DNA of 60,115 nucleotides, the filler included. It is 6 parts of 6 records of this genome, joined end to end, with 100 filler letters (N's around TTAATTAATTAA, not from the genome) between each part and the next. Parts side by side here need not be neighbours in the genome. Positions count along the whole stretch, not along the records: positions 25,162 to 32,163 come from SRR31147125_3439; 5 more parts are not named here. One strand, written 5' to 3'. A program made the position numbers and the translations under genes. Under the pieces are notes generated by a model. It saw nothing but the letters and a program-made list of their open reading frames with translations. It did not search any database and had not been told where the DNA came from. The number at the start of each line of letters is the position of its first letter. Position 1 is the stretch's first letter. Below are positions 8,038 through 40,171 of this stretch, piece after piece.

Positions 8038-8322
8038 ATGAAGATTACTATATCTGATGAAGCAAAAGAACATATAAGAAAAAAAGGCAAAGACACTATT
8101 ATGGTAGAAGGTGTTGGTGCGGGTGGCTGTGTTGAAACTGCTTTACCATATGTGTTTTATAAAAAGCCAGAAAAAGAATCTGATTTTATTTATCAGAGGA
8201 TAGATGATATAGATATTTATATATCCAAATACTTTCATCTTAAAAATGATACGTTGAGTATTATTGCTCAGGGGAAGTGGGTTTTTAGAGAGATTGTAGT
8301 GAAGGGAATAAAAATATTTTAA
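8038..8322 (+). CDS. Small HesB-like / CC-Se-motif-like protein
   Basis: MKITISDEAKEHI...GGC..P...KKP....DDIDIYI pattern; 2 nt downstream of cstA. Confidence 0.5.
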   Translation: MKITISDEAKEHIRKKGKDTIMVEGVGAGGCVETALPYVFYKKPEKESDFIYQRIDDIDIYISKYFHLKNDTLSIIAQGKWVFREIVVKGIKIF

Positions 8323-13266: not shown

Positions 13267-13366
13267 NNNNNNNNNNNNNNNNNNNNNNNNNNNNNNNNNN
13301 NNNNNNNNNNTTAATTAATTAANNNNNNNNNNNNNNNNNNNNNNNNNNNNNNNNNNNNNNNNNNNN
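13267..13366. other. Artificial contig spacer
   Basis: N44-TTAATTAATTAA-N44 (stops in all six frames). Confidence 0.99.
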
Positions 13367-13367
13367 A

Positions 13368-16319: not shown

Positions 16320-16342
16320 CATTGGTATTAAAAAGAAAAAGA

Positions 16343-17268
16343 ATGAACTCATTTAAATTGTCCATATCTCCCCCCATAAAAACCGCATTCAAAAAACCGA
16401 TGGAGCTGGCTGCCGATGCCCTCTTTTTTGCTGCCGACGGGCTATCGGATCTGGCGCGTATTTTACACTACCAAAGGGTGGCGAACATTGAGTTCAAACA
16501 CAGACCGGATGACATTTTCATCGTCACTTATCCCAGATCCGGCACCACCTGGCTGCAAATGATCATGTATCAACTGATCAGTGACGGAAAAATGGAGATT
16601 GATCATATTGCCCAAAAAGTTCCCTGGTTTGAGCGACTGATCCACTACCGAATATGGGGGCCCGAGGAGTTTGAAACGATGCCCTCTCCCAGGATTTTCA
16701 AGTGCCACTTACCGGTAAATGAAATGCCGAAAGGAACGGGAAAATGCATCTATGTGGCTCGAAACGGATTTGATGTGGCTGTCTCTTACTTTGAGTTTTA
16801 CCGTTCACATCTGGATTTCAAAGGAAATTTCGATCAGTTCCTGAAACGATTTATCAAAGGTGATGTTCAATTCGGAAGCTGGTTTTCCCATGTGTCATCA
16901 TGGAAAAGAGTGGTGGAAAAAGGAAACAGCGCTCAAACGGGTGCCCCCCTCAAGTCCTCTTTTTGACATTCGAAGATTTGAAAAACGACTTTGAATCCCA
17001 GCTGGATAAAATCATATCCTTTACCGGATTTGACATTCCCAATAGCCGACGGCCCGGTATTATCGAACGATGCGGATTTGATTTCATGAAAGACCATGAA
17101 GAAAAATTCGATCACATTACAGCTCAAATTTGGGAGAAAAACTATAGACGGGCCGCTTTCATTAGAAAAGGCAACTCCGGCAGCGGTCACATCCAGTTTT
17201 CCAACACCCAAAAAGAAGCATTTCAACGCACATTGAAGCAATTTCACATCGAGACCCTATGCCCATGA
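16343..17268 (+). CDS. PAPS-dependent sulfotransferase (Sulfotransfer_1/SULT-like); frameshift in the C-run at about 16944-16949
   Basis: RPDDIFIVTYPRSGTTW (5'-PSB), YVARNGFDVAVSY (3'-PB), FGSWFSHV, LFLTFEDLK, and RKGNSG in the second frame. Confidence 0.88.
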
Positions 17269-20200
17269 CCCATTCATCCGCCACCGTCACCAACCAGACC
17301 GATACATTAAAACGACTCTACATCACCCTGAAACAGACCCAAAGTAAGCTTTCCAAGCTGAGGGCTGCAGCCAAGGAACCCATTGCCGTGATCGGCATGG
17401 CATGCCGATTTCCAGGAGGAGCGGACACCCCGGAAAAATTCTGGAATCTGCTGATGGAGGGAAAGGATGCCGTCATCGACGCCCCTTCGGATCGATGGAA
17501 CGGTGATGCCTGGCTTGATGAAGACCCCAATGCTCCGGGTAAAATGTTTACCATTCAGGGCGGATTTCTGACGGAACCGGTGGACACGTTTGATGCGGCG
17601 TTTTTCAACATCTCTCCCAAGGAAGCGAGGGCACTCGATCCCCAGCAACGGATGCTTCTGGAGGTGAGTCGTGACGCCTTTGAAAACGCAGGGATTGCCC
17701 CATTCGGGCTAAAAGGCAGTGCCTGCGGTGTTTTCCTTGGGATGTCAAGCGACGATTACGCACTGGCCCATCGTCATTCAGGAGACCACGAAGTAATCGA
17801 CGCCTATGCCATCACCGGCACCACGTTTTCAACCGCCTGCGGACGTCTCTCTTACACCTACGGATTCCAAGGCCCTTCCATGACTGTGGATACAGCCTGT
17901 TCATCGGCACTCACGGCAGTTCACCTGGCCTGCAAAAGTCTTCGAAGTAAAGAGTCCGAGATGGCTTTGGTGGGCGGAATCAACCTGATGCTCTCACCGG
18001 AATCCCATGTCTGCTTTTCCAAACTTCGCGCCATATCTCCGGACGGTCGATGCAAATCCTTTTCCGCTGATGCCAACGGTTACGTGCGGGGTGAAGGCTG
18101 CGGACTTGTCATTTTGAAGCGCCTTTCAGATGCACAAAAAGACAACGACCGAATTTTAGGACTCATCCGGGGGAGCGCCGTCAATCAGGACGGCAAAAGC
18201 AACGGATTGACCGCCCCCAACGGCAACGCCCAGAAAAAAGTGATATTGTCCGCCCTGGAAGACGCCGGGTTGCCGCCGGAAAATGTGGGATTCATAGAAA
18301 CCCATGGGACTGGAACTTCATTGGGAGACCCGATTGAGGCGGAAGCCGTCGGTGAGGTATTCGGCCCCCATTTTTCCATGGACCGAAAGCTGATCATCGG
18401 ATCCTGCAAGACCAACATCGGCCATCTGGAGCCTGCTTCAGGTATCGCGGCCCTCATCAAAACCGTGCTTTGCCTACAACACGGAACGATTCCTCCCAAT
18501 CTCCATTTCAATACCCCCAGCCCGTTCATCCCCTGGGATGAGGTTCCGCTTTTTGTGCCCCGAATGCCCATGGCGTGGAAACCGAATGAAAAGCCACCCG
18601 AGAAGGATCATGTGAAAAATGAACAAAATAGGATTCACAATGGGCAACGGAATGAACAGAAGAGGGGATGGAAAGATGATGAGAAAAAAATAAGCATCGG
18701 TGAACGTGTCGCCGGCATCAACGCATTCGGTTTTTCCGGTACCAACGTTCATATCATTATCAGTGAAACGCCCCTCACCACTTCCGTCCCGGATACCGTA
18801 CATGATTTTAATCCGACTAAAGCCGATGATCGTAGTGAACAAAATGCGTTCAATGATTTAAAAGAGACCGGGCTCGATAACCCATCCAGCCCGGCAAATG
18901 GAAACACCAACCATTTGCTGCCCATCTCCGCTAAAAGCGAAGCGGCACTCACATCATTACAGGATCGTTACCTGACATATCTGGAGCACCCGGAAAATCG
19001 ACATTCTCTTGCAGCGATCTGTAACACGGCGACTTGCGGTAGAGATCATTTCGCTTATCGAATGGCGGCAGTGGGCAGTACTCCCGAAGCGCTCATCAAA
19101 GGGCTTTCCAAACAGTCACCGATCAAAAGCGGCGCGGCACCTTCAACCGCCTTTCTTTTTACGGGTCAAGGGTCCCAATATCCCGGTATGGGGTTTGGCC
19201 TTTATCAGGCCGGATCTGTTTTCAAAGAAACCCTTGATTTATGCAACGAAATCTTGACACCGCTTTTGAACACCTCTTTGACTCAGCTTCTCTACAATCG
19301 GGAATCAAATCCGGATGCGTTGGCCGAAATCTTGAGTCAAACCCGTTTCACCCAACCGGCGCTTTTTGCCGTGGAGTATGCCCTCTATTCGTACTGGCGC
19401 TCTTTGGGAATCGTTCCCGATTTCATGATGGGGCACAGCGTTGGAGAGTATGTGGCGGCCTGTGCGGCCGGGTTGTTCTCTTTGGAGGATGGGCTGATGT
19501 TGATCTGCAGGCGAGCAGAGCTGATGCAGGGCCTCCCCTCAGGCGGAGCCATGGCTGCCGTGATGGCCAATGGCACCCAGGTTGCAGATGTTGTTTCAAA
19601 AGGAGGGTACACCATCTCCGTCGCCGCATACAATGGTCCCAAACAGACCGTCATTTCGGGTGCCGCGGCTGATGTGGACGCTGTCACAAGAGCATTCAAA
19701 GAGCAGGGAATGAAAGTGGCAACGCTTGTCGTCTCCCACGCCTTTCACTCCCACTTGATGAATCCGATTCTCGATGAGTTCGAGAAAACAGCCGCATCCA
19801 TTGCGTTCAAGAAGCCGTCGATCCGACTCATCTCAAATGTGTCCGGAGAAATCGGCGGAGAAGAGATGGCAGACGCCGCCTATTGGCGCAATCACATCAG
19901 ACAACCCGTACAGTTTTTAAAAAGCATGCAGACCCTTCACCGCGAGGGGGTGACGGTTTATGTTGAAGCGGGTCCCAAGCCGACCTTACTGGGAATGGGA
20001 AAAGCCGCCCTTTCCGATACCAAGGCAGAGTGGTTGCCGAGTCTCAGATCCGGACAACCCGACCGCCATGTCCTGTTCACAAGCCTTGGTAAGCTTTACA
20101 CTGCCGGTTTTGAGATCGACTGGAATCCGCTTCATAAAACCGATCTTGGAAAACCGGTGACGCTGCCCAACTACCCTTTTGAAAAAAAACGGTTCTGGAT

Positions 20201-23200
20201 GCCTATCCCATCGGCTTCAGGCCCTGGAGAAAGTTCAAGAATTACCCATTTTGAACGCAATGAACTTCACCCCTCAGGTGTGCGTTATGCCCCCCAAATC
20301 CGCATCAGGCAGATGGATCATCACATGCGCATAATGCGTCATCACGCCTCCATCCTTTGATCGATCGAAAAGTTACCTCACCGCTCCTTCAGAAGATTCT
20401 TTTTGAAACGACTTTCAGCCAAGATGCCCTCCCCTTTCTGGATGATCACCGCATCTTCGAACGAATGGTTGTCTCTGCCGCATCCCATCTCTCTTTACTT
20501 CAAGGGGCGGCAATAAATCTGTTTTCGGAATCAGGGTGCAGTATCGAAGACATTCTCTTCACACAGGCTCTGGTGATTCCCGAAGATCACCCCAAAACGG
20601 TGCAACTGATTTTGACACCGGTGAACGACGCGTCCCCTTCAGTCACCGATGAGTTGTCAGTCGGCATCAAATTGATTCGAGAACAGCATAAACCAAGAGC
20701 AGAAAAAGCCCGGACATTTGACTTTTCCATCATCAGTTTCTTTCCGGGTGAAGACCATTTCACGCAGCATGTCACCGGTAGAATCGCACCAAAGAAGCCG
20801 ACGGAACAAATAGGCCGACTTTCGCTCTCCAACGGGTGGCAACACTGTACGACCCATTGGGATGCTGGAGAGGTTTACGAATTCCAGAAGCAACGTCAAA
20901 TTTCTCTGGGACCGACCTACCGCTGGATCGATTCCATTCGCACCGGCAGCCGTCAGGCAGTCTGCCGATTAGTGCCTCCCATCGGGCTGGACTTCCAATC
21001 CTGGGGTCTGCATCCGGGGCTCATCGATTCCTGTTTCGGCTTGATGGTGACGGCCGCCGGGGGAGATCCGGATGCCACGTACATTCCTTTTGCTCTGGAA
21101 GAATTCCGTTGCCGAAGACAAAGTAAAGGGAAAAACCTCCAAGCCGTCGCTCAAATCCGCCCAACATCTCTTGAATCGAAACCCGAATCCGGTTCTGTAA
21201 CGCCCTCTGAAAAGTTGATTGGCGACATTCAACTTTTTGACCAAGATGGTCTGGTTGCAGAATGGATCGGCCTTGAAGGGCGTCAGGTGGATCCGGCCTC
21301 TTTGTTGAAAGCCGACCTCCATGGCTCAAACTCAGCTCGAGCCGGGGCAACGTCTGAAACGGATGGAATGATTTACGAGGTGCAATGGGAACCCCTTGAA
21401 ATAAATGCCGATACCAGCCCGGGCAATACTGCCCGGGTTGGGCTCAAAGGCGGAGAGTGGATTGTGATTGGAGATACCGATGGGGCTGCAAAATCACTAA
21501 ATGATCGGTTGAACAACATTGGGGCGACATCCAATTGCTGGTCCTGGGATATCCTCTCCGAATTTGATGAAAAGGCCCATGACAATAGCCCATTGCAGAC
21601 AATGCCGGATCCGGATACCGACCTCGAAACTCAACTCAACTCTCCTTCTTTAGAAGGGGTGGTCCATCTTGTATCTTCAGCTTGGGGCAAGAAGGAGGCC
21701 CATGAAAACATTGGGGGGATCAACAATAGGAAGCTGAATTTAAGACTTGAAGCACTGCAAAAAAAAATCTGTGGTCTCCCCCTGACACTTCTAAAAAAAC
21801 TGATTCAACAGAAAAACACCTCAGCGGAAGGACGCCCCCCTCGACTTTTCCTTGTCACCCAGGGGACTCAATCCGTGACTGAAACGGAAAATCGCATCGA
21901 CCCGCATGGCGGGACCTTGTGGGGCCTTGGCCGGGTCATTGCTTTGGAACACCCTGAAGTCAACCTGTCATTGGTAGATCTCGATCCCGATGAAAACATG
22001 GAAATTGCCCTTGACACGCTTGCAGACCTTTTGTCGAAACTTTCTGATGACCTATCCTCTTCAGTAGGAAGCGAATTTCAATTTGCAATCCGGAATAAGA
22101 CACTCTTTATCCCTCGTCTGATACGATCCGGAAATCACCTGTCCCCGACAACCCGATCTACAGCCGATTTTCTAGCCGGATCATCCTCACCATCGAAACC
22201 GGCATTGCCCTTTTCCAAAGCACATAGTTATCTCGTCACCGGTGGAATGGGCGGACTGGGACTGGTGACAGCCAAATGGCTTGCTGAAAACCAAGCCGGT
22301 TGCATTGTCCTTGCCGGGCGTAGTGCCCCTTCAATTGAGGTACAAGAAACCGTTGATTCTCTAAAAGCGAATACCCGGATCTTCGTATCGAAACCCGAAC
22401 GGTCGACATGGCGGATCCCGAGCAGATCAACTCTCTATTCGATGAACTTGAAACCGATCTTCCACCGCTCAATGGCGTCATTCATACTGCCGGCTTCCTA
22501 AACGACGGCATGCTGTCGCAGTTGGAATGGCCGAAATTTTGGGAGGTCATGGCTCCAAAAGTGACCGGCGCCTTTGTGATGGGTCAACGCATCGGCCAGT
22601 TGAAAGAGGATCTCGACCTATTCATCTGCTTCTCATCCATTGTTTCGATTTTGGGGACACCGGCACAGGGCAACTATGCGTCTGCCAACGCCTTTCTGGA
22701 CGGTATCTGCCGACAAAGAAAATCCCAGGGAAAACAAGCTCTTTCCATCAACTGGGGGCCCTTTGATCAAACCGGCATGGCTGCCCGTCTCAGCGAAACA
22801 AATAAAAAACGTATCACTAAACAGGGATTTACATTACTCCCTCCGGAGTTGGGATTGGTTGCACTGGAGAGACTTTTGGCGTCGAATCTCTCGGAGGGTG
22901 CGGTCATGGATGTGAATTGGTACACTTTTATCGACCGATATCATGCCTCTTTATCCTCAACAAGCCGAAGCGGTAATCGCGTTCAACCCGGTGAGCGGTT
23001 CCTGCAATATCTCATTCAATCTGAAAAAGAAAACTCCGAGTCAACATCTGCCAAGTCAAACATTACAGCATCACCACGCACCGAGCGGTCATATACCTGG
23101 CTCACCGAGTTGATTCAAGTCCCCGAATATGACCGTCAAGCGTGGTTATTCAATAAAATTCAGTCCGCGACCGCAGAAAGTCTGGGACTGGAAGAACCGG

Positions 23201-23672
23201 ATGAAGTGGCAGCCGATGCCCGCCTTTTCGATCTTGGACTGGATTCTCTTATGGCGGTGGAGCTCAAAAACACCATTGAGAAAAACCTCGATTGCCGATT
23301 GAAATCGACCCTGGTTTTCGACTACCCCACCGTCGAGACTCTCACCGGTTACCTGATGGAAAACATTCCCATGGAAGCTACTCGGCAAGAGTCGAATTCG
23401 GCAGAGCATCTTGTTCCTTCAACGGAAAAAAACCGGACAAGATTACCGACACTTCTACGACTGAAAAAGAATCCCATTATGATGAGAATTCCTCTTGGGA
23501 CGGAAAATCCCGCCAGTCAACGCCACCCTCAAATACAGAGCAATATCTCGATGAAGGCCGTGACGGTTTCATCTACACAAAGAAGACGGTCGAGGAAGCG
23601 GTGGCTGCTTTGAGTGATGAAGAAGCCGAGATGTTGCTTCTCAAGGAACTGGAAGAGCTCGATCTATCATGA
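17259..23672 (+). CDS. Single-module type I PKS, KS-AT-DH-KR-ACP (about 2100 aa), split by three frameshifts near 20290-20350, 22365 and 23430
   Basis: KS DTACSS/HGTGT/KTNIGH; AT GHSVG and HAFHS (malonyl type); DH HPLI..HRIFERMVVSA..HPGLIDS; KR GGMGGLG/HTAGFLNDG/NYASAN; ACP GLDSLMAVEL; docking tail LSDEEAEMLLLKEL. Confidence 0.9.
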
Positions 23673-25061
23673 CCTACACCCAATCGACATCCAAGCCCCT
23701 ATCCCCAGTCAAACAAGCGCTACTGGCAATCAAAAAACTTCAGGGAAAATACGATGATCTGAAAGCGCAAAAAAACGAACCCATTGCCGTTATCGGTATG
23801 GGGTGTCGATTTCCAGGTGGCGCCGACACGCCCGATGAGTATTGGGAGCTATTGAAAGACGGACGAGACGCCATCATGGAGGTCCCTGATTACAGATGGG
23901 ATATCGATAGCTGTTTCGACCCAAACCCGGAAACACCCGGCAAAATGTATTGTCGATACGGCGGTTTTCTCGGGCCCGTGGATGGATTCGACAGTCTCTT
24001 TTTCGGCCTTTCCCCTCGGGAGGTGGCCCGCATGGATCCTCAACATCGATTGGTATTGGAGGTGGCATGGGAAACCCTTGAACATGCAGGAATTCCCGCA
24101 TCGGAAGTGCATGGTGCGCCTGTGGGCGTTTTCTTGGGTAGTACCGCCTTTGATTACGGAACTCTTCTTTTCGGAGAGGGGGATCTCACCCGCATCGACG
24201 CCTTTTCCGGCACCGGCGGTACCCTCGGACCGGCAGCCGGACGCCTTTCCTATCTATTGGGATTGACCGGTCCGAGTTTCGTACTGGACACAGCTTGCTC
24301 ATCATCCATCGTGTCCGTCCATTTGGCATGTCAGAGTCTCAGAAACCGAGAGTGTGAGATGGCCCTTGCAGGGGGAGTGAATCTGGTGCTCATTCCGGCG
24401 GGTACGATCAACTTCTGTAAAGCGCGCATGCTTGCACCGGACGGACGTTGCAAAGCATTCGATGCTGCTGCCGACGGTTATGTTCGCGGTGAAGGATGCG
24501 GTATGGTGCTCTTAAAACGCCTCTCGGACGTCGTCCCCGATCATGACCGTATTTTGGCCCTGCTCAAAGGGTCGGCAGTGAATCAGGATGGACCTTCCGG
24601 CGGGTTTACCGTCCCATCCGGCCCGGCCCAGGAAAAGGTGATTCAATCCGCTCTGAGTGCAGCAGGGGTATCGCCTGAGCAGATCGACTACATCGAGGCC
24701 CACGGCACAGGAACCGCCTTGGGAGATCCCATCGAAGTGGAAGCTCTTGGTTCGGTATTCGGGCCATACAAAACAGCTGCATCGCCGCTTCACATCGGAT
24801 CGGTCAAGACCAACTTCGGTCACCTGGAGGCGGCAGCAGGCATCGCCTCCCTTATAAAGGTGATTCTCTCCTTGAATCATGACACGATTCCGCCCCATCT
24901 TCACTTCAACACTCCCAATCCCAGGGTGGAGTGGGATGCATTGCCGATTCAGGTCACAAAGGAATCCACTCCATGGAAAGAAAACGGAGACTCCAGGTTT
25001 GCCGGAATCTCATGTTTCGGATTCTCCGGGACCAATGCCCATCTCATTGTCGGGGAAGCCC
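23669..25061 (+). CDS. Type I modular PKS, N-terminal docking domain plus KS; 3'-truncated
   Basis: LSPVKQALLAIKKLQ docking helix, EPIAVIGMGCRFPGG, DTACSSS, HGTGT, KTNFGHLEAAAG, FGFSGTNAH. Confidence 0.95.
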
Positions 25062-25161
25062 NNNNNNNNNNNNNNNNNNNNNNNNNNNNNNNNNNNNNNN
25101 NNNNNTTAATTAATTAANNNNNNNNNNNNNNNNNNNNNNNNNNNNNNNNNNNNNNNNNNNN
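25062..25161. other. Artificial contig spacer
   Basis: N-run containing TTAATTAATTAA. Confidence 0.99.
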
Positions 25162-25271
25162 GGGGCGACGCAAGCCCCCATAATAGATTCAGAATATCAT
25201 TTATCCAAAATCAACACCCATGGTGTCATTATTATCCACCCATAAAAGAAGTATAAACTGTAAATCTAAGC

Positions 25272-25324
25272 TTGGTATCAGTTTTCAAATACCAAAAAAA
25301 TATTTTTTGGATAAAACCTTATCC
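25272..25324. promoter_or_regulatory. Candidate upstream activator sequences (enhancer) for the sigma-54 promoter
   Basis: Inverted repeats TTGGTAT-N10-ATACCAA (25272-25295) and GGATAA-N4-TTATCC (25309-25324), 105-155 bp upstream of the -24 box. Confidence 0.4.
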
Positions 25325-25427
25325 GCTACTCTCTAAATAGAAATAGCTCTCACTTATCACCAAACATCAAAACCCCATAACACATACATCAACCACCTCA
25401 ATAATGAATTAAGCAAAAAAAACGAGA

Positions 25428-25443
25428 TGGCACACCTCTTGCT
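25428..25443 (+). promoter_or_regulatory. Sigma-54 (RpoN) -24/-12 promoter
   Basis: TGGCAC-ACCTC-TTGCT matches TGGCAC-N5-TTGCW exactly; ends about 40 nt upstream of the radical SAM start codon. Confidence 0.85.
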
Positions 25444-25485
25444 AACATCATTCGGCTCAACCCTCTTCAAAAGAAAGGACGGCCG

Positions 25486-26829
25486 ATGAAAGCATCGATG
25501 TTTAATAAAATATATCCATTAAATGAGAAGGGTACTAAATATCTAATTTACAACACCTTTCACGATCACCAGATAATTGTTAGCAACGGAGACATCCTTG
25601 TAACAGATTTTTTTATAAAAATAGCTCAAGGAAAGAAACTAAACAAAGAAGAAGAAAAAGCAGCTTCAGAACTAGCAAAACTGGGAATAATTTTAGAAAA
25701 CGATGTTGACGAACTTGAAATATTTAACAACTGGTTCACAAACAAAATCCGTGAAGATAGTGACTATCTCAATATCACAATACTAACCTCTATGAAATGC
25801 AACCTCAGCTGTGATTATTGCTATGAAAAATCGGTCGCAACCAATGACATAATGGATGATGAGACAGTAAAAACTATTGTCTCTTTTTTATTAAAAAAAA
25901 TCATCTCATCATCTCCCAGCAAGATCCATATCGAATTCTATGGCGGCGAACCAATGACAAACATGGATGCCGTTACATATATTGCCGAAACGATAAAACA
26001 TTATTGCAAGTGGAGTGAAAGAAAAATAACCATAGGGATCACAACCAATGGGACATTACTAACCTCAAAAAACGCCGAAAGACTAAAAACAGCCGGAATT
26101 GACAGGCTTAAAATAACCCTGGATGGCTCCGAAGAATATCATGATAAAAAAAGATTTTTCAAAAAAACTCGAAAAGGAACTTTTGAAGCAATCTTCAACA
26201 ATCTAAACAACAACTCAGATGGTTTTGAAATACTAATCGGTGGCAACTTCGACAATAACAACTATAACAGCTTTCCTCTCCTAATTGAAGAACTCAAAAA
26301 ATCTAATTTTAGAGACAGGATTCGACATGTCAACTTCAAACCTATCATAGAAAATTTTGGTGGCAAAAAAGCATTTTGTCATATGAGCACACAAGATCCT
26401 TCAAATTATTCTAATAAAAGACTTTCTCAAATGCTCTATTTAAGGAAATTAATAAACGCTTCCGGACTGCCAACTTCAAACCAAATAGCTCTAGGCCCGT
26501 GTGAGTTCTACCGAAAAAACTCCCTAACCATAGACACTAATGGAGAAATCTATAGCTGTCCTGCCTTTGTCGGCAGGAAGAATTTCACTATCGGAAATAT
26601 CAACTTAATCAAATATTCAAAGCGTGGAGACTATTTCCACTCTCTCAAACCATGGCAACAAGACGACAATTGTGACAAGTGCGGCTATCTTCCTATTTGT
26701 GCTGGAGGTTGCAGGGCTAACGCATGGAATCAAAACAAAACGATCGAAGACGTTTCGTGTGATAAAGAATTTTTCAACCAAATCATCAACTCTGTGATCG
26801 TGTTACCAAACACAGAACACATTGCCTAA
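25486..26829 (+). CDS. Radical SAM/SPASM peptide maturase with a probable N-terminal RRE
   Basis: CNLSCDYC (CX3CX2C); FYGGEP; SPASM GPC...NGEIYSCPAF...CDKCGYLPICAGGC...SC; about 90-aa N-terminal extension typical of peptide maturases. Confidence 0.92.
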   Translation: MKASMFNKIYPLNEKGTKYLIYNTFHDHQIIVSNGDILVTDFFIKIAQGKKLNKEEEKAASELAKLGIILENDVDELEIFNNWFTNKIREDSDYLNITILTSMKCNLSCDYCYEKSVATNDIMDDETVKTIVSFLLKKIISSSPSKIHIEFYGGEPMTNMDAVTYIAETIKHYCKWSERKITIGITTNGTLLTSKNAERLKTAGIDRLKITLDGSEEYHDKKRFFKKTRKGTFEAIFNNLNNNSDGFEILIGGNFDNNNYNSFPLLIEELKKSNFRDRIRHVNFKPIIENFGGKKAFCHMSTQDPSNYSNKRLSQMLYLRKLINASGLPTSNQIALGPCEFYRKNSLTIDTNGEIYSCPAFVGRKNFTIGNINLIKYSKRGDYFHSLKPWQQDDNCDKCGYLPICAGGCRANAWNQNKTIEDVSCDKEFFNQIINSVIVLPNTEHIA

Positions 26830-26865
26830 ATCCTATTAGTTAACATGAAAGGAGGTGATATCGAT

Positions 26866-26943
26866 ATGACTATTGAAATAGTAAAAAAAGGAGATAACGT
26901 TGATTCTCCTAAGCCACTAATGTGTCTCCCAGTATGGATATAA
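26866..26943 (+). CDS. Putative RiPP precursor peptide, 25 aa, MTIEIVKKGDNVDSPKPLMCLPVWI (absent from the ORF track)
   Basis: Near-perfect SD AAAGGAGGTGA at 26848-26858, 7 nt before the ATG; 36 nt after the rSAM stop; followed by a terminator. Has a leader-like IEIVKKG and a hydrophobic Cys/Trp core. Confidence 0.82.
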   Translation: MTIEIVKKGDNVDSPKPLMCLPVWI

Positions 26944-26983
26944 AAAGTCTTTCCACATAAAAGGAAGGATACAGGGATATCAG

Positions 26984-27017
26984 AAAAAAGAGGAGTCTAA
27001 TTGATTCCTCTTTTTTT
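26984..27017 (+). terminator. Rho-independent terminator closing the rSAM-peptide transcript
   Basis: AAAAAAGAGGAGTC-TAATT-GATTCCTC-TTTTTTT. Confidence 0.8.
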
Positions 27018-27073
27018 GGAACCAGACATACATATATTGCAATAATAGATCATATTAGATATGCCTAATTTTA

Positions 27074-28648
27074 ATGAATAGACGCCCAAAAAGATATTTT
27101 TCATTACTCATATGCTACTTACCGTTAATCTTTTTGTCGACATTACTATATTCACCCGTTTGTAATTCTGAAAGCTATGGTGGGAATTTAGCGATTGGTT
27201 ATTTTGGACAAATCGAAGAAATCAACCCAACAGAAACAAACTCTGGAATAGGAGGGAATTTAATAGATATTGTTTTCGACTCGCTCCTTGAAATAGGGGA
27301 TGATGGAAATTTACTTCCAAGAATATCCGAGGAATGGTCAATTTCACAAGATCGACTTCTCTGGACATTTCACCTCCAAAAAAATATTCAATTTCATGAT
27401 GGGACTCCACTCACAGCCAAAGATGTAAAGTCTACTTATGAAGAAATCTTAAAGAAGAAATCGGGCCCCTATTTCAACTTTCTCAAACACATAAAGAACA
27501 TAACAGTAGTGGATGAGCACACTCTAAAAATTGAACTCAGCCAAAACGACAATACATTTCCCATTGCACTCTATGCAATTGGAATTGCAAAGAATGATGG
27601 GAAGTACATCGGTTCAGGACCTTTTCAACTTATATCGTCATCTTCCAAGGAAGCTTTTCTAAAAGCCAACACAAATCATTTCAGAGGACGTCCTTACTTG
27701 GATTCAGTCACTGTTAGATTTTTTCCAACTCAGAGAGCTAATCTTGCAGCACTTACATCAAAAGAAGTCGATATGCTCTATATCCATGATCAAAATGATT
27801 ACGGAATTCTTCGAAAGATTGCTCATATTAAAGTTTATCCATTAAAAACTCAAACAATGTCCATGGTTTTTCTCAACAACTCAAAAGAAATTTTCAGAGA
27901 CACTCTCGTTCGAAAAGCTCTAAACTATGCAATAGACAATAACAGAATCATAGAAACAGTCTTGAAGGGCAATGGTGATACAGCATTCACATTTGTTACC
28001 AATGAAAATGAATTATTCAATCCTGACATAGAAAAGTACAACTATGCACCTGATAAAGCGCTAGACTTGCTTAACAGCGCGGGATGGAAGAGTAAAGACT
28101 TCATACTCAAAAAAGACGGCGTCCCCTTTGAATTCATCTTAAATGTGATTAAAGAAAATGATCTACATAAAAACGTAGCCAGAGTTATTCAACAGCAACT
28201 AGACGAAATTGGCATTAGAGTACACATTAACCTTGTCCCATTCAACGAATTACTAAAAAACCTTTACAATGACAAAAATTACGATGCAGCAATAATCTCG
28301 GCAAACTTTAGATATAATCTTTTTAACAACTACTCGCTATGGCATTCGTCGCAAAGAGACAAAGGATCTAATTTTTCATTATACAAAAACTTAAAAGCAG
28401 ATATTGCTCTAGAAACAGCCAGAAAAACAAGCGAACATGAAATTTTAAAAAAATCATACATGAAATTTCAAAAAGAGATCAATAGCGACCCTCCTGTCAT
28501 ATTTCTCTTTTGGCTAAACTTTGCACTTGGCATAAACAAAGACTTTAAAAACATACCAGACAAACCAGACCTTTTTTTCAAAGCCTTACCAAACATATGG
28601 CTTGAAAAAGAAGTTCTAACCACAGGAAATCTTAGTTATGGAAAATAG
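27074..28648 (+). CDS. ABC transporter substrate-binding protein, family 5 (OppA/DppA/AppA-like)
   Basis: Signal peptide; family-5 signature WTFHLQKNIQFHDGTPLTAKDV; GSGPF; VRKALNYAID; WHSSQ. Confidence 0.9.
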   Translation: MNRRPKRYFSLLICYLPLIFLSTLLYSPVCNSESYGGNLAIGYFGQIEEINPTETNSGIGGNLIDIVFDSLLEIGDDGNLLPRISEEWSISQDRLLWTFHLQKNIQFHDGTPLTAKDVKSTYEEILKKKSGPYFNFLKHIKNITVVDEHTLKIELSQNDNTFPIALYAIGIAKNDGKYIGSGPFQLISSSSKEAFLKANTNHFRGRPYLDSVTVRFFPTQRANLAALTSKEVDMLYIHDQNDYGILRKIAHIKVYPLKTQTMSMVFLNNSKEIFRDTLVRKALNYAIDNNRIIETVLKGNGDTAFTFVTNENELFNPDIEKYNYAPDKALDLLNSAGWKSKDFILKKDGVPFEFILNVIKENDLHKNVARVIQQQLDEIGIRVHINLVPFNELLKNLYNDKNYDAAIISANFRYNLFNNYSLWHSSQRDKGSNFSLYKNLKADIALETARKTSEHEILKKSYMKFQKEINSDPPVIFLFWLNFALGINKDFKNIPDKPDLFFKALPNIWLEKEVLTTGNLSYGK

Positions 28649-29342
28649 TATTTCAAACATGGAATTGATTGCTTCTTTTTCATTGATAATCATAATTATA
28701 GCAATTTCGAAGATAAAAAATTTCGGCATAGGAAAAGATATTATCTCGTGCTCAATACGGGCTTTTGTTCAACTTATTTTAATGGGTTACGTTATTCAAA
28801 TTTTATTTAAAATCGAAACTACGCCACTCCTCCTAGCAATCCTCCTAGCAATGTCGGCTATTGCTGCCATAAATCCTTCAAAGAGGGCTCCAGAAATCCC
28901 TCATCTATACTGGATTATACTATCGTCTCTATTTTTGAGCTCGGTCTTAGCTCTTGTCCCCCTCACACTCACCGGTGTAGTTGAAAATAACGCAAAAATT
29001 ATTATTCCACTTGGAGGCATGATTATTGCCAATTCAATGGCCGCATCTTCTATTTTCATCGACAGATTTAAATCAGAGCAACTAAAAACGTCTGAAGGTG
29101 ATATTCATTCTAAACTAAAGATTTCATTCAAAACAGCAACAATCCCGGTAATTGACACAACAAAAATAACCGGACTTGTGAGCGTCCCTGGAATAATGGT
29201 TGGAATGATAATGAGTGGTGTCTCACCTATCGTCGCTGTAAAGTACCAAATAGCAATTCTTTATATGATACTTTTTTCATATATAATTTCTTTATTTTTT
29301 ACATTTACAATACTTGGAAAAACAATTTCAAAAAAACGATAA
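28638..29342 (+). CDS. FetB/YbbM (UPF0014) ABC-permease-like membrane protein
   Basis: IRAFVQLILMGY, IIPLGGMIIANSM, GLVSVPGIMVGMIMSGVSPIVAVKYQI motifs. Confidence 0.85.
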   Translation: MENSISNMELIASFSLIIIIIAISKIKNFGIGKDIISCSIRAFVQLILMGYVIQILFKIETTPLLLAILLAMSAIAAINPSKRAPEIPHLYWIILSSLFLSSVLALVPLTLTGVVENNAKIIIPLGGMIIANSMAASSIFIDRFKSEQLKTSEGDIHSKLKISFKTATIPVIDTTKITGLVSVPGIMVGMIMSGVSPIVAVKYQIAILYMILFSYIISLFFTFTILGKTISKKR

Positions 29343-31069
29343 TGAAAAGTATATCGACAAAACTGATAGCCCTACTTACAACAGCTGCAATATTACCGCT
29401 GATTCTATTTGGCATACTCACAATTATAAACGCCAGAGAAACTGCAATAATCAGCATTCAAAAAGGAAATATCCAGTCGGCACGATACGCATCTGGCCAA
29501 ATAATGCAATACATCAATAATTCACTAAACATTCTCGAGTCCCTAGCCCAAAATATCAATAACCCTGATATAAGCTCATATCAGCGAGAGCGAATACTAA
29601 GAAACTATGCAATCAATTTTAAAGAATTTAACTATATAGAGACTGTAAAAATGAATGGCTTCGTCCTAACATCTACCAAACTCGAAAAGGACGGTCATAA
29701 GACAAGAGCATTAATGAGTTCTTCAGAATTCAACCCCAAAGACAACCGCCTCTCAGAGGTCTTTATAACCACCGACAAAACTCCTGCCATGACCATTTCA
29801 ACACCTCTAAAGCATCTTGGAAACACAAATGGAATACTCGTTGCCGAACTTGACCTTATGAACATGTGGCATTTAGTTGATGAAATGACCATTGGGAAAA
29901 AGGGATATGTAAACATAGTAACTGGCAGCGGCCGATTAATTGCAAGTGGCCACCCATCACTAAAACAAGAGATCTTTAAAGAAGGTGTTTATAGAAACAT
30001 AGATACACTTCAAAATTTTGAATCATCTTCAAACAACTCCCTCTTTACGTTACAAAATGGTGACGAAGAGATAACGTTAGCTATAATTAAACTCCCTAAC
30101 CCACTCAACTGGTTCATAGTAATCGAACAACCGGCAAAAGAAGCTTACTTATTAGCAACCTCAATGACGATAAACTTGATAACACTAATAGTGTTATTCA
30201 TATTAATAGTAACAATAACGGGCTACTTCAGTGGTAGAAAACTTTTTGTAAAACCTATTCAAACACTAATTCTAATGACAAAGAAAATAGCTGGCGGAAA
30301 TTTATCTCAACATATAACCTTAAACAGCAATGATGAGCTCGGAGAATTAGCGAAATCATTTAACCAAATGTCCCATAACTTAATTGAACTCAAAGAAAAT
30401 GTTAGAAAAAAAGAACGAATGGCTGTATTTGGACGCATAGCCTCCGGCCTTGCTCACGATCTTAAACATCCTATTCAAAGCATAAAAAATGTATGCAGAC
30501 TATTAACTCAAAACAATAACGCTGACTATTCAGATATTGTTAATTCTACTTTTACCCGTGAATTCCAGAAAATAGACAGCTTCCTAGAAAACCTTCACAA
30601 CCTAACTAAAGACATCCCATATAATCCAGTTAATCTTGACCCAAATAAGGTTTTATTAGAGACTATTATCAATTTCCAGCAACAGCTCATAGACAGCTCA
30701 ATTGAATTACACCTAAAACTTACCGAAAGCCCGACACTAATTCATGCTGATCGTTTTTCTTTAATTAGAATTTTTTCAAATTTAATTTTAAACGCTATCC
30801 AAGCATGCAGCGATGGAGATTCCATCACTATAAAAAGCGAAAAAATGAATCCAAAACTATTTATTATTGAAATAGAAGATACCGGTCGAGGCATCGAAAA
30901 GGACGAAATCAATAATATTTTTCAGGATTTTACAACAACAAAACATAGCGGACTAGGCCTCGGACTTGCCCTTTGCAAGCGAATATTGGACCAACATAAT
31001 GCTAAAATATATGTAGAAAGCAAAGTTAACAAAGGAACGATTTTTAAACTAACTTTTAATAGACTTTAA
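29342..31069 (+). CDS. Membrane sensor histidine kinase (Cache-like periplasmic domain, HAMP, HisKA, HATPase)
   Basis: Two TM helices around an extracytoplasmic domain; HAMP DELGELAKSFNQM; H-box LAHDLKHP; N-box NLILNAIQA; DTGRGI; GLGLGL. Confidence 0.93.
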   Translation: MKSISTKLIALLTTAAILPLILFGILTIINARETAIISIQKGNIQSARYASGQIMQYINNSLNILESLAQNINNPDISSYQRERILRNYAINFKEFNYIETVKMNGFVLTSTKLEKDGHKTRALMSSSEFNPKDNRLSEVFITTDKTPAMTISTPLKHLGNTNGILVAELDLMNMWHLVDEMTIGKKGYVNIVTGSGRLIASGHPSLKQEIFKEGVYRNIDTLQNFESSSNNSLFTLQNGDEEITLAIIKLPNPLNWFIVIEQPAKEAYLLATSMTINLITLIVLFILIVTITGYFSGRKLFVKPIQTLILMTKKIAGGNLSQHITLNSNDELGELAKSFNQMSHNLIELKENVRKKERMAVFGRIASGLAHDLKHPIQSIKNVCRLLTQNNNADYSDIVNSTFTREFQKIDSFLENLHNLTKDIPYNPVNLDPNKVLLETIINFQQQLIDSSIELHLKLTESPTLIHADRFSLIRIFSNLILNAIQACSDGDSITIKSEKMNPKLFIIEIEDTGRGIEKDEINNIFQDFTTTKHSGLGLGLALCKRILDQHNAKIYVESKVNKGTIFKLTFNRL

Positions 31070-31129
31070 GCCAAGCTCATCACTTGGCTCTTGAAAATCA
31101 ACAAGTAAGGTCGTATACTTTCAAGCAAT

Positions 31130-32134
31130 ATGCAAATTGAACATATAAAAGACGGCATCAAACTAAGAGCAACTTGCCCACCTCAAAAAATCGCTAAATC
31201 ACACTATTTCTATAAGCAACTCTTTGAAATATGCAATTTTTCAATCATTGTAACATGCAAGGATTCTGGGGTCATTATCGATGCAAACAATCATGCTACA
31301 AAACTATTCAATAGAGATCTAGTTGGATTTCATATTAGTGACCTTCATCCATTATCAAAATTAAGCGGTTTTGACATTGACGATAAAGATTTTATGCTAA
31401 AAGAACTTGAAATAAGTTCAGAGGATACCAATTTTGCAATATTGATATTATTCCGAGCAATTTATTCACATGATCTCAATTCCGACACGTTCTTAGCAAC
31501 AATGGCTCATGAACTTAGAAACCCTATTAGCGTAATAAAAGTTGCTTCATACAATATCAACAGAAAGAGCTCCAACGAGTCAATTAAGGGAAACCTCTCA
31601 AGAATCGACAAAAAACTTCTTGAGTGTGATGAAATCATTGATGACTGCTTAAACCTCGCAAAAAAAGAGATTAAGAGATTTAAAAAGGTGTCGATACTCA
31701 ATGCTATCAGAGAATGCCTTACTCATTATTCAAAAAAACATAAAGACTGCAATATCACTCTTGATCTAAATAACGAGTCTGATGATGACAACATTCTGAT
31801 TTTTTGCAATCCGACACATCTGAATCAAATTCTACACAATGTCATTAAAAATGCATGTCAAGCTGTGCCAAAAAATTCTGGAACAATAACTATTTCCCTG
31901 CAGACATTTTCTGATGGCAATACCTGCAAAGTTTCCATTGCTAATGATGGTCACACTATTAGTCCTGAAAATTTGGAAAAAGTACTACTCCCCTTCTTTT
32001 CTACTAAACAAGGGGGAACAGGGCTTGGTTTGGCAATCACAAAGCAGCTAATGTCATTAAATGGCGGCAAACTCGAAATAGACAGTAATGAAACAGATGG
32101 GACTACAGTTTCACTGTTTTTCACAACAGCCTAA
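31130..32134 (+). CDS. Soluble histidine kinase with a degenerate PAS-like N-terminus
   Basis: IIDANNHATKLF (PAS-like); MAHELRNP; NVIKNACQA; PFFSTKQGGTGLGL. Confidence 0.88.
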   Translation: MQIEHIKDGIKLRATCPPQKIAKSHYFYKQLFEICNFSIIVTCKDSGVIIDANNHATKLFNRDLVGFHISDLHPLSKLSGFDIDDKDFMLKELEISSEDTNFAILILFRAIYSHDLNSDTFLATMAHELRNPISVIKVASYNINRKSSNESIKGNLSRIDKKLLECDEIIDDCLNLAKKEIKRFKKVSILNAIRECLTHYSKKHKDCNITLDLNNESDDDNILIFCNPTHLNQILHNVIKNACQAVPKNSGTITISLQTFSDGNTCKVSIANDGHTISPENLEKVLLPFFSTKQGGTGLGLAITKQLMSLNGGKLEIDSNETDGTTVSLFFTTA

Positions 32135-32163
32135 TAACTACCCACTCACTTAATCAGTTTTTT

Positions 32164-32263
32164 NNNNNNNNNNNNNNNNNNNNNNNNNNNNNNNNNNNNN
32201 NNNNNNNTTAATTAATTAANNNNNNNNNNNNNNNNNNNNNNNNNNNNNNNNNNNNNNNNNNNN
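32164..32263. other. Artificial contig spacer
   Basis: N-run containing TTAATTAATTAA. Confidence 0.99.
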
Positions 32264-38848: not shown

Positions 38849-38948
38849 NNNNNNNNNNNNNNNNNNNNNNNNNNNNNNNNNNNNNNNNNNNNTTAATTAA
38901 TTAANNNNNNNNNNNNNNNNNNNNNNNNNNNNNNNNNNNNNNNNNNNN
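38849..38948. other. Artificial contig spacer
   Basis: N-run containing TTAATTAATTAA. Confidence 0.99.
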
Positions 38949-40131: not shown

Positions 40132-40171
40132 AGAGAAATAAAAAGATATATGCGAATTGGAGGAATTGATA

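What the first reader, a model, noticed from the sequence alone, without database searches (positions are those of the whole stretch)
26845..26943. Hidden 25-aa precursor MTIEIVKKGDNVDSPKPLMCLPVWI with a C-x3-W core
Seen: too short for the ORF track, but it has a near-perfect SD (AAAGGAGGTGA) and sits between the maturase stop and a terminator. An in-frame ATG at 26845 would add MKGGDID but lacks a good SD. It has a beta-strand-like leader (IEIVKKG, the kind RREs bind), a polar/Pro linker and a hydrophobic core with one Cys and one Trp four residues apart. Trp is penultimate, so the aromatic-X-X triceptide pattern cannot form from it, and it is not Cys-rich like SCIFF. Inference: one small macrocycle (Cys thioether to a carbon, or a Cys/Trp crosslink), similar in ring size to agr autoinducing peptides but made by radical chemistry.
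Basis: partly seen in the sequence, partly recalled or inferred. Interest (0 to 1): 0.85.

Follow-up and report, generated by a model that had tools for sequence, protein, structure and literature searches.

The report
Hidden radical-SAM peptide precursor with sensor genes
The 25-codon gene is real: it encodes the one-cysteine substrate of the radical-SAM enzyme just upstream, belongs to a widespread family that nobody has studied, and nearly always sits beside a peptide-binding protein, a sensor kinase and a sigma-54 switch, so the cell may make and sense its own modified peptide.

Summary
ORF 26866-26943 (25 aa) has an 11-nt Shine-Dalgarno match. It lies 36 nt after the stop of an RRE/radical-SAM/SPASM gene (25486-26829) and before a strong terminator hairpin.

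It is not a chance ORF. A peptide profile found the same kind of small ORF in 35 related loci, always just downstream of the enzyme homologue on the same strand. No such hit occurred anywhere else among 32,209 six-frame segments. A profile search of 1.84 billion proteins gave 277 further clusters.

The family has a leader MK(I/V)x(I/V)(I/V)KK, an invariant Cys, and Asp/Glu at Cys+5. The window's peptide and five others end exactly at Cys+5.

The enzymes form a clade that is sister to the "geopeptide" maturases, which are named in databases but unstudied. Neither geopeptide model is met.

Most loci carry a sigma-54 response regulator, a sigma-54 promoter, a family-5 solute-binding protein and a dCache kinase. 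The window has a perfect sigma-54 promoter at 25428-25443.

Best reading: a single Cys-to-(+5) thioether macrocycle that serves as the ligand of a self-sensing circuit. The chemistry and the ligand role are inferred. The Cys-Trp idea is not supported. The PKS genes lie on another contig.

The parts
25062..25161 (.). Contig joint (N44-TTAATTAATTAA-N44). The cassette contig starts at 25162, so the PKS genes upstream are not true neighbours.
   Evidence: GC is 50.1% for 13367-25061 and 35.1% for 25162-32163.
25428..25443 (+). Sigma-54 type -24/-12 promoter TGGCACACCTCTTGCT, starting 58 nt before the rSAM start codon.
   Evidence: Two matches to TGGCAC-N5-TTGCW in the window against 0.05 expected. 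24 of 33 family loci have a site scoring at least 9 of 11 within 300 nt upstream, against 1.2% of background windows.
25486..26829 (+). RRE / radical SAM / SPASM peptide maturase, 447 aa.
   Evidence: CxxxCxxC at C105/C109/C112. Seven SPASM Cys are invariant. Best NCBIfam model is TIGR04280 at 277.7 bits (cut-off 400). The closest solved structure is 5WGG/5WHY.
26849..26859 (+). Extended Shine-Dalgarno AAGGAGGTGAT, 6 nt before the ATG at 26866.
   Evidence: The closest relatives L081, L082, L083 and L003 carry the same extended SD.
26866..26943 (+). Precursor peptide gene, 25 aa plus stop: leader MTIEIVKKG..., core ...PKPLM-C-LPVWI.
26845..26865 (+). In-frame upstream ATG extension (MKGGDID). 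Probably not used.
   Evidence: It overlaps the SD itself. All homologues begin at the position of the inner Met.
26983..27017 (+). Intrinsic terminator hairpin with a U-run after the precursor gene.
   Evidence: A hairpin followed by a T-run also follows 10 of 36 family peptides.
27074..28648 (+). Family-5 (peptide/nickel type) solute-binding protein with an N-terminal signal sequence.
   Evidence: An SBP homologue lies downstream on the same strand in 28 of 32 loci with enough sequence.
28638..29342 (+). UPF0014 / FetB-like membrane permease. It overlaps both neighbouring genes. It was not found in the other loci.
29342..31069 (+). dCache_1-HAMP histidine kinase.
   Evidence: A homologous kinase follows the SBP in 12 of 14 loci with at least 2400 nt downstream.
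31130..32134 (+). Second histidine kinase (HisKA + HATPase_c, no recognised sensor domain). The contig ends 29 nt later.

Best explanation
ORF 26866-26943 is the precursor gene of an unnamed family of radical-SAM/SPASM-modified peptides. This family is the sister branch of the database-only "geopeptide" family.

Transcription starts at a sigma-54 promoter (25428-25443) and runs through the maturase and the peptide gene to a terminator. The maturase binds the beta-strand leader (MTIEIVKKG) through its N-terminal RRE-like domain. It then uses radical chemistry on the invariant Cys20.

The most likely product has one thioether from the Cys sulfur to the residue five positions on. In most family members that residue is Asp, which would react at the carbon next to its side-chain carboxylate. 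In the window's short form it is the C-terminal Ile25, whose own carboxylate would play that role. The result would be a six-residue ring.

The product is then probably the ligand of the adjacent extracytoplasmic family-5 binding protein. That protein would signal through the coupled dCache kinase to a sigma-54 response regulator, which turns the same promoter on, giving a self-sensing loop.

Shown: the gene, its conservation, the enzyme architecture, the linkage and the promoters.
Inferred: the type and position of the crosslink, export, ligand identity and the feedback loop.

My odds: real precursor of this enzyme 0.9; Cys thioether 0.6; acceptor at +5 0.4; product sensed by the SBP-kinase pair 0.45.
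For: Gene and family:
- 35 loci plus the window score E<1e-3, all just downstream of the rSAM on the same strand, with no hit elsewhere in 32,209 segments.
- 277 clusters match in 1.84e9 proteins, nearly all of the best 150 being 29-34 aa.
- SD-like motif at 36 of 36 starts.

Enzyme:
- CxxxCxxC plus the full SPASM Cys set is invariant.
- The SPASM domain model is met at 62 bits against a cut-off of 27.
- The AF2 model has pLDDT 88.7 and an N-terminal three-strand/three-helix domain.
- The best structural matches are 5WHY/5WGG, TM 0.64-0.70, then TigE 8VPO. Passages of PMC10878394 describe RRE domains in both, with substrate bound in CteB.

Clade:
- The 38 enzymes with a downstream peptide are monophyletic (support 0.885) and sister to the upstream Cys-Cys geopeptide clade. 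The joint node has support 0.979.

Chemistry lead:
- Cys is present in 36 of 36 and 150 of 150 peptides.
- Position +5 is Asp/Glu in 25 of 36 and 146 of 150.
- Six of 36 peptides, including the window's, end exactly at +5.
- PapB links Cys to the carbon next to a carboxylate of Asp/Glu, or of a C-terminal residue, and a carboxamide is not processed (PMC12373016, abstract and section 5).

Circuit (confirmed by Pfam):
- Sigma-54 response regulator upstream in 22 of 29 loci.
- SBP downstream in 28 of 32 loci.
- dCache kinase in 12 of 14 loci.
- Sigma-54 site in 24 of 33 loci against 1.2% of background windows.
- The SBP is closest to the oligopeptide binder AppA, 1XOC, E 3e-49.
Against: - No chemistry, expression or binding was tested.
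- The window's core (C-LPVWI) departs from the family consensus C-P-W-x-[VI]-D and has no acidic residue.
- PapB did not process C-terminal L-Ala, Lys, Phe, Asn, Ile or Gln. It accepted only Gly, D- or beta-residues. A C-terminal L-Ile acceptor would therefore need a different active-site geometry.
- L142 ends at +6, L015 ends at +4, and L009 and L022 have Ala or His at +5.
- No exporter or leader peptidase is conserved in the cluster.
- The window's contig is cut 324 nt upstream of the rSAM, so its own sigma-54 regulator is not seen. No whole genome is held.
- The enzyme is below the cut-off of every named NCBIfam maturase model.
- The SBP also resembles nickel/metallophore binders. The closest GTDB locus, L001, has a TonB receptor in place of the regulator.
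Confidence: 0.6

Rival explanations
1. The modified peptide is a metal-binding or metal-delivering molecule (metallophore-like). The SBP is its uptake or recognition protein, and the kinase and regulator report metal status or the loaded peptide.
For: - The best NCBIfam hits for the SBP are nickel and staphylopine-metal binders: NikA 171 bits, CntA 138 bits, all below cut-off.
- PDB hits include NikA at about 1e-24 and MbnE (5ICQ) at 5e-15.
- A FetB-like permease sits between the SBP and the kinase in the window.
- L001 and most loci of the Cys-Cys sister clade carry a TonB-dependent receptor.
Against: - The SBP is much closer to the oligopeptide binder AppA (3e-49) than to NikA or MbnE.
- One Cys, probably consumed by the enzyme, is a poor metal site.
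- Most loci of this type have no importer permease or ATPase. They have a translationally coupled kinase instead.
- The FetB-like gene was found in none of the 37 other loci.
Confidence: 0.15
2. The peptide is an effector, for example an antimicrobial or a membrane-active peptide. Its production is switched on by the SBP-kinase-regulator system in response to some other external peptide or nutrient, not to the product itself.
For: - Many rSAM/SPASM thioether peptides are antimicrobials (general knowledge, recalled).
- The regulatory linkage shows control of the operon. It does not show what the ligand is.
Against: - No immunity gene or dedicated exporter is conserved.
- The tight order enzyme-peptide-SBP-kinase recurs across phyla. 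The same theme appears with a different SBP family (PF04392) in the sister clade. That is easier to explain if the SBP recognises the product.
Confidence: 0.15
3. One reading: the enzyme makes a Cys20-Trp24 crosslink, or another modification on Trp.
For: The window's core has one Cys and one Trp. rSAM enzymes that crosslink Trp exist (listing and general knowledge, recalled).
Against: - Trp at +4 occurs only in the window among the 36 peptides.
- Position +4 is V/I in 26 of 36 and 138 of 150.
- L001, L081 and L014 have no Trp after the Cys.
- The nearest solved enzyme is a thioether former.
Confidence: 0.06
4. The ORF is a chance open frame in an intergenic region and is not translated.
For: It is only 25 codons. 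No RNA data set was listed for this DNA.
Against: Conservation of position, strand, leader motif, Cys and SD holds in 35 loci from several phyla and in 277 protein clusters.
Confidence: 0.02

Closest known systems
Geopeptide system (NCBIfam TIGR04229 peptide + TIGR04280 'geopeptide radical SAM maturase'). It is defined computationally. No paper in the searched library contains either term.
   Same: - The best-scoring named model for the enzyme.
- Sister clades with joint support 0.979.
- Related beta-strand leaders ending in K/E-G. The two peptide profiles cross-hit weakly.
- Both travel with a periplasmic binding protein and a Cache/HAMP kinase.
   Different: - The enzyme scores 277.7 bits against a cut-off of 400.
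- The peptide does not match TIGR04229 at all.
- The peptide gene lies downstream, not upstream.
- It has one Cys with a C-x4-D/E or C-x4-end core, not Cys-Cys.
- The SBP is family 5, not PF04392.
- A sigma-54 regulator replaces the TonB receptor as the usual upstream gene.
CteB (thermocellin) and PapB (freyrasin) thioether-forming rSAM/SPASM maturases (sactipeptide / ranthipeptide enzymes)
   Same: - RRE + rSAM + SPASM architecture.
- 5WGG/5WHY is the top sequence and structure match. 5WGG appears together with the name CteB in 13 papers (search listing only).
- The donor Cys lies N-terminal to a carboxylate-bearing acceptor, as PapB requires.
   Different: - About 20% identity to 5WGG.
- PapB model 150.5 bits against 340, SCIFF model 105 against 425.
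- Spacing is C-x4-D rather than PapB's C-x3-D.
- There is a single site rather than six.
- A signalling gene context.
Staphylococcal agr autoinducing peptides (recalled, not tested here)
   Same: A short peptide in which a Cys lies a few residues from the C-terminus and forms a small C-terminal ring. It is sensed by a histidine kinase that induces its own operon.
   Different: - agr uses AgrB protease chemistry to make a thiolactone, with no radical SAM enzyme.
- In agr the ring is Cys plus four residues. Here it would be Cys plus five.
- Here sensing would go through a separate binding protein and a sigma-54 regulator.
- No AgrB or AgrD family was seen on the contig.
Binding-protein-dependent kinases such as LuxP-LuxQ, and RiPP systems with a family-5 binding protein such as methanobactin MbnE/MbnT (both recalled). 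MbnE 5ICQ appears as a weak hit.
   Same: An extracytoplasmic solute-binding protein encoded next to a sensor kinase or an uptake receptor for a small secreted molecule.
   Different: Neither involves an rSAM/SPASM-modified one-Cys peptide or a sigma-54 loop. MbnB and MbnC are absent.

Membership tests
Geopeptide system (TIGR04280 + TIGR04229) | The maturase reaches the TIGR04280 cut-off of 400 bits. | tested here: not met
   277.7 bits, E 1.7e-82
Geopeptide system (TIGR04280 + TIGR04229) | The peptide matches TIGR04229 (cut-off 30 bits). | tested here: not met
   No hit at E up to 10 for the window peptide, L001 or L004. The Geotalea peptide in L029 scores 40.5 bits as a positive control.
Geopeptide system (TIGR04280 + TIGR04229) | The precursor lies upstream of the maturase and has a Cys-Cys core, as seen in 17 of 17 profile-positive loci here. 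| tested here: not met
   The window peptide lies downstream and has a single Cys.
Radical SAM / SPASM RiPP maturases | CxxxCxxC radical SAM cluster motif. | tested here: met
   C105, C109 and C112 are invariant in 24 sequences. PF04055 scores 63 bits against a cut-off of 29.5.
Radical SAM / SPASM RiPP maturases | SPASM domain with seven Cys for two auxiliary clusters. | tested here: met
   TIGR04085 scores 62 bits against a cut-off of 27. C339, C358, C396, C399, C405, C409 and C425 are invariant.
Radical SAM / SPASM RiPP maturases | N-terminal RRE-type winged-helix domain for leader binding. | tested here: met
   The model has strands 7-11, 18-23 and 28-33 and helices 39-48, 54-65 and 76-89. 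There are full-length matches to 5WGG and 8VPO. RRE domains are described for both in PMC10878394 passages. Leader binding itself was not tested.
Ranthipeptide / PapB family | The enzyme reaches the NF047865 cut-off of 340 bits. | tested here: not met
   150.5 bits
Ranthipeptide / PapB family | Thioether from Cys to a non-alpha carbon of a downstream Asp/Glu. | not testable with these tools
   Only the sequence pattern is available: C-x4-D/E in 146 of 150 relatives. The window peptide has no acidic residue after its Cys.
SCIFF / sactipeptide maturases | The enzyme reaches the TIGR03974 cut-off of 425 bits and the precursor has six Cys. | tested here: not met
   105.1 bits. The peptide has one Cys.
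New downstream one-Cys family (defined here) | Small ORF within 300 nt downstream of the maturase, with leader MK(I/V)x(I/V)(I/V)KK and a single anchor Cys. | tested here: met
   The window peptide scores 34.4 bits, E 2.7e-8. It was one of the 16 seeds, so this is partly circular. Its enzyme groups inside the clade with L001 and L081, support 0.967.
New downstream one-Cys family (defined here) | Core C-P-W-x-[VI]-[DE]. | tested here: not met
   The window has C-L-P-V-W-I and then ends. It belongs to a short subtype with L001, L081, L082, L083 and L014.
Sigma-54 / SBP / dCache-kinase sensing module | Sigma-54 promoter before the maturase, with a family-5 SBP and a dCache-HAMP kinase downstream. 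| tested here: met
Sigma-54 / SBP / dCache-kinase sensing module | NtrC-type sigma-54 response regulator upstream. | tested here: inconclusive
   The contig starts 324 nt before the rSAM. No such gene was found on the other contigs scanned. No genome is held.

The most novel reading that the evidence does not exclude
The window's short-form peptides would be natural examples of C-terminal thioether macrocyclisation: Cys20 sulfur joined to the alpha-carbon of the last residue, with the free C-terminal carboxylate standing in for the Asp side chain used by the rest of the family. That reaction is so far known only from PapB acting on artificial substrates.

The resulting six-residue ring peptide would be the autoinducer of a previously undescribed circuit made of an rSAM peptide, a binding protein, a Cache kinase and a sigma-54 regulator. 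This would be a radical-SAM analogue of agr signalling, and it is spread over Acidobacteriota, Omnitrophota and other largely uncultured phyla.
Probability: 0.2. Interest if true: 0.85.

Novelty: new variant of a known kind. Interest (0 to 1): 0.66.

Why it matters
This defines a large peptide family that has no family model. At least 277 clusters at 50% identity match it, and it has a sharp, testable core motif (C-P-W-x-V/I-D, or C-x4-end).

The family links a radical-SAM peptide to a dedicated binding-protein/kinase/sigma-54 module. The MAG records that carry it are labelled mostly Acidobacteriota, and peptide signalling has hardly been described in such largely uncultured lineages (my recollection, not searched).

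If the product is the ligand, this would be a new kind of peptide autoinduction. If the short forms are cyclised onto their C-terminal residue, it would be the natural counterpart of a reaction now being developed as a peptide-stapling tool (PMC12373016).

Each step is open to simple bench tests: co-expression with mass spectrometry, SBP binding and a promoter reporter.

Tried and rejected
- The genome search for relatives: no whole genome is held for this window.
- Complex prediction of the SBP (residues 32-524) with the 32-aa ORF: 'no answer', score 0.02, controls not run. This is not evidence either way.
- The look-up of sequencing runs: only the probable source DNA sample holds the contig. 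No RNA holder is listed, so there are no expression data.
- Rfam scan of the contig at E up to 0.1: nothing.
- Protein Atlas on the enzyme: only generic rSAM/SPASM clusters, with no help on taxon.
- Taxon of the contig: not resolved. The closest enzyme and SBP relatives are 46% and 45% identical and unnamed. The other contigs of the window differ in GC and include Firmicute sporulation genes, so they cannot be used.
- Literature: 'geopeptide' and 'TIGR04280' each gave 0 papers. Combined searches for rSAM/RiPP with sigma-54, SBP, kinase or TonB gave nothing relevant. 'Ranthipeptide' with 'quorum sensing' gave 76 papers, of which I saw the listing of 20, and none was on this family. Supplements were not available.
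- The simple terminator scan missed the hairpin, so folding was used instead.
- PKS adjacency is rejected because of the contig joint.
- Rows left out: L034 and L011 (long read-through tails) were left out of alignment A2. The sigma-54 count dropped L002, L090 and L108 because they have under 60 nt upstream.

Full report
OBSERVATION

Window 26845-26943 (+) translates to MKGGDIDMTIEIVKKGDNVDSPKPLMCLPVWI*. The inner ATG at 26866 is preceded by AAGGAGGTGAT (26849-26859) and a 6-nt spacer. The upstream ATG at 26845 lies inside that Shine-Dalgarno stretch. The ORF starts 36 nt after the stop (26827-26829) of a 447-aa radical SAM gene. It is followed by a 15-bp hairpin with a U-run at about 26983-27017. 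That 91-nt stretch folds at -31.4 kcal/mol, z = -5.9, and 0 of 200 shuffles fold as well. The simple terminator scan did not list the hairpin.

CONTEXT CORRECTION

The window is not one piece of DNA. Five N44-TTAATTAATTAA-N44 linkers join six contigs whose GC content is 34.5, 50.1, 35.1, 37.9, 30.6 and 30.8%. The cassette contig is 25162-32163, which is 7,002 bp. The polyketide synthase genes at 13367-25061 lie on a different, 50% GC contig and are not neighbours. The first contig carries SpoIIR, SleB and YpeB. No whole genome is held, and the taxon of the cassette contig is unresolved. The nearest enzyme and binding-protein relatives are only 46% and 45% identical and unnamed.

THE ENZYME

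- Pfam finds Radical_SAM and Fer4_12.
- The best NCBIfam model is TIGR04280 'geopeptide radical SAM maturase' at 277.7 bits, below its cut-off of 400. It is followed by CefB (192 bits against 600), TIGR04463 (173 against 525), PapB (150.5 against 340) and SCIFF (105 against 425).
- The SPASM domain model is met, at 62 bits against 27.
- In an alignment of 24 relatives, C105/C109/C112 and seven SPASM cysteines are invariant.
- An AlphaFold2 model (pLDDT 88.7, pTM 0.87) has an N-terminal domain of three strands and three helices.
- Its best structural matches are 5WHY/5WGG (TM 0.64-0.70, about 20% identity) and then TigE 8VPO. Sequence profile searches agree.
- Passages of PMC10878394 describe the RRE domains of TigE and CteB, and substrate bound to the CteB RRE in 5WGG.

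The enzyme is therefore a complete RRE/rSAM/SPASM peptide maturase, nearest to a thioether-forming one.

IS THE SMALL ORF A GENE?

I fetched 80 loci from genome contigs and 80 from metagenome contigs around relatives of the enzyme. A first scan showed small ORFs of the form MK(I/V)x(I/V)(I/V)KK...C... just downstream of many of them.

A profile built from 16 of these, including the window's, was run against all 32,209 six-frame stop-to-stop segments of the 160 loci and the window. It found 36 hits at E<1e-3: 35 loci plus the window. All lie 30-298 nt downstream of the enzyme on the same strand, and there is none elsewhere. Twenty of the 35 loci were not seeds.

All 36 starts have an SD-like 4-mer within 20 nt. 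The closest relatives (L081, L082, L083, L003) share the window's extended AAAGGAGGTGA.

All homologues begin at the position of the window's inner Met, which supports the 25-aa form.

The same profile, run against 1.84 billion representative proteins, found 277 at E<=1e-3. Nearly all of the best 150 are 29-34 aa long. Neither Pfam nor NCBIfam has a model for them.

RELATION TO GEOPEPTIDE

A second profile, built from Cys-Cys peptides found upstream of other relatives, hit 17 loci, all upstream. The Geotalea member (L029) matches TIGR04229 'geopeptide' at 40.5 bits. The window-type peptides do not match it.

In a FastTree of 69 enzymes:
- The 38 enzymes of the downstream type form one clade, support 0.885.
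- The upstream Cys-Cys type forms its sister clade, support 0.905. The joint node has support 0.979.
- The window groups with L001 and L081, support 0.967.

Eight of the 38 tips lacked a profile hit:
- L008 and L109 do carry a divergent peptide.
- L020, L102, L095 and L089 are cut at or near the enzyme's end.
- L007 has a fragment.
- L103 is unclear.

The window's system is thus a member of an unnamed sister family of geopeptide, not of geopeptide itself. No paper in the searched library mentions 'geopeptide' or 'TIGR04280'.

WHAT THE PEPTIDES SAY ABOUT CHEMISTRY

I anchored the peptides on the Cys.

In the 36 locus peptides:
- Cys is present in 36 of 36.
- Position +5 is Asp in 24 and Glu in 1.
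- Six peptides (window, L001, L014, L081, L082, L083) end exactly at +5.

In the 150 best database representatives:
- Cys 150 of 150.
- +1 is Pro in 109.
- +2 is Trp in 83.
- +4 is Val or Ile in 138.
- +5 is Asp in 131 and Glu in 15.

The family core is therefore C-P-W-x-[VI]-[DE]. The window's C-L-P-V-W-I belongs to a rarer short subtype in which the only carboxylate after the Cys is the C-terminus itself, at the same distance.

PapB, a related SPASM enzyme, joins Cys sulfur to the carbon next to a carboxylate. The carboxylate can be the side chain of Asp/Glu or, in vitro, that of a C-terminal Gly, D- or beta-residue. A C-terminal carboxamide is not processed. [quoted passage not shown]

My inference is therefore a single thioether from Cys20 to residue +5. 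In the long forms the target would be the Asp beta-carbon, and in the window the alpha-carbon of Ile25. The caveat is that this needs a different stereochemical preference from PapB.

Trp at +4 is unique to the window, and three short forms have no Trp after the Cys.

GENE CONTEXT

On the window's contig the order is:
- sigma-54 promoter
- maturase
- peptide
- terminator
- family-5 solute-binding protein (27074-28648)
- UPF0014/FetB-like permease (28638-29342)
- dCache_1-HAMP histidine kinase (29342-31069)
- a second kinase (31130-32134)

The three genes from the SBP to the first kinase overlap at their junctions.

Pfam scans of 19 related loci and a tblastn census of the 37 other loci show the same module. 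Each count is over the loci with enough flanking sequence:
- An NtrC-type sigma-54 response regulator lies upstream on the same strand in 22 of 29.
- A family-5 SBP lies downstream in 28 of 32.
- A dCache kinase follows it in 12 of 14.

The window has TGGCACACCTCTTGCT at 25428-25443, starting 58 nt before the maturase start. The pattern TGGCAC-N5-TTGCW occurs twice in the window against 0.05 expected. The other match lies inside a PKS gene.

With GG and GC fixed, 24 of 33 family loci have a site matching at least 9 of 11 consensus positions within 300 nt upstream of the enzyme. Only 1.2% of random 330-nt windows from the same loci do so.

The SBP is closest to 8EFZ and to the oligopeptide binder AppA (1XOC, E 3e-49). 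Its similarity to NikA (about 1e-24) and to MbnE (5e-15) is weaker.

The sister Cys-Cys clade shows the same theme with other parts: a TonB-dependent receptor, a PF04392 binding protein and an sCache/HAMP kinase. In L013 and L017 the parts are a family-5 SBP, ABC exporters and a dCache kinase. Earlier notes of this scan on other genomes reported that sister arrangement. They are leads, not independent evidence.

HOW IT MOST LIKELY WORKS

The steps shown by sequence and comparison are:
- a sigma-54-dependent operon encoding the maturase and a strongly translated precursor;
- an enzyme with all the parts of a leader-guided thioether-type maturase;
- conserved linkage to a binding protein, a Cache kinase and a sigma-54 regulator.

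The inferred steps are:
- the leader strand docks on the RRE;
- Cys20 is crosslinked to residue 25;
- the peptide leaves the cell by an unknown route, since no exporter or peptidase is conserved;
- the SBP binds it and activates the kinase;
- the regulator activates the 25428 promoter, closing a positive loop.

RIVALS

- A metallophore-like role. In favour are the NikA/CntA-like hits, the FetB-like gene, and TonB receptors in L001 and the sister clade.
- An effector peptide controlled by a system that senses something else.
- A Cys-Trp link.
- A chance ORF.

My odds are given in the Rival explanations section.

WHAT DID NOT HELP

- The complex prediction of SBP with the peptide gave no answer.
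- No RNA run is listed.
- Rfam found nothing.
- The window's own regulator is missing because the contig starts 324 nt before the maturase.

VERDICT

This is a real, conserved and unmodelled RiPP precursor of a sister family of geopeptide, with an unusual short core and a conserved sensing module. I rate it a new variant of a known kind, with interest 0.66.

Noticed in passing
window 13267-13366, 25062-25161, 32164-32263, 38849-38948, 47702-47801: Five N44-TTAATTAATTAA-N44 linkers show that the window is a pseudomolecule of six contigs. Their GC content ranges from 30.6 to 50.1%, and one contig carries Firmicute sporulation genes. Gene adjacency across the joints is meaningless, and the bin may be mixed.
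   Followed up: yes
window 17259-25061: The type I PKS genes are broken up. The KR domain is split between ORFs 20357-22501 and 22408-23613, and the last KS is cut by the contig end. This points to a frameshift or an assembly error in a modular PKS on the 50% GC contig.
   Followed up: no
window 54051-55726 and 55820-57231 (-): ilvD is split into two overlapping ORFs, and so is a gntP-type transporter. These are frameshifts, caused either by indel-prone assembly or by pseudogenes.
   Followed up: no
window 25290-25313: An AT-rich near-palindrome, TACCAAAAAAAT/ATTTTTTGGATA, lies about 115-138 nt upstream of the -24 element. A related arm sits at 25200-25210. This is a candidate binding site for the missing sigma-54 activator.
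   Followed up: partly
window 28638-29342: A UPF0014/FetB-like permease is wedged between the SBP and the kinase and overlaps both. tblastn found it in none of the 37 related loci. No partner ATPase is present on the contig.
   Followed up: partly
L015 4862-7111: One 750-aa open frame carries both the C-terminal part of the family-5 SBP and the dCache domain of the kinase. It may be a natural SBP-kinase fusion or a MAG sequencing error. A true fusion would support a physical partnership between the two.
   Followed up: no
L013, L017 (loci): These basal members of the Cys-Cys clade combine a family-5 SBP upstream, the peptide, the maturase, one or two ABC exporters and a dCache kinase. This is the most complete make, export and sense gene set seen.
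   Followed up: partly
window 40157-46099: A 1,981-aa ORF combines a Ser/Thr kinase N-terminus, a TOMM-kinase/cyclase-like middle and a CheA-like histidine kinase C-terminus.
   Followed up: no
window 8038-8319: A 94-aa protein matches the CC/Se motif (seleno)protein family NF041239 at 65.9 bits (cut-off 40).
   Followed up: no
window 19571-19586: A second perfect TGGCAC-N5-TTGCA match lies inside the PKS KS-AT gene. It is probably a chance match in GC-rich coding DNA.
   Followed up: no
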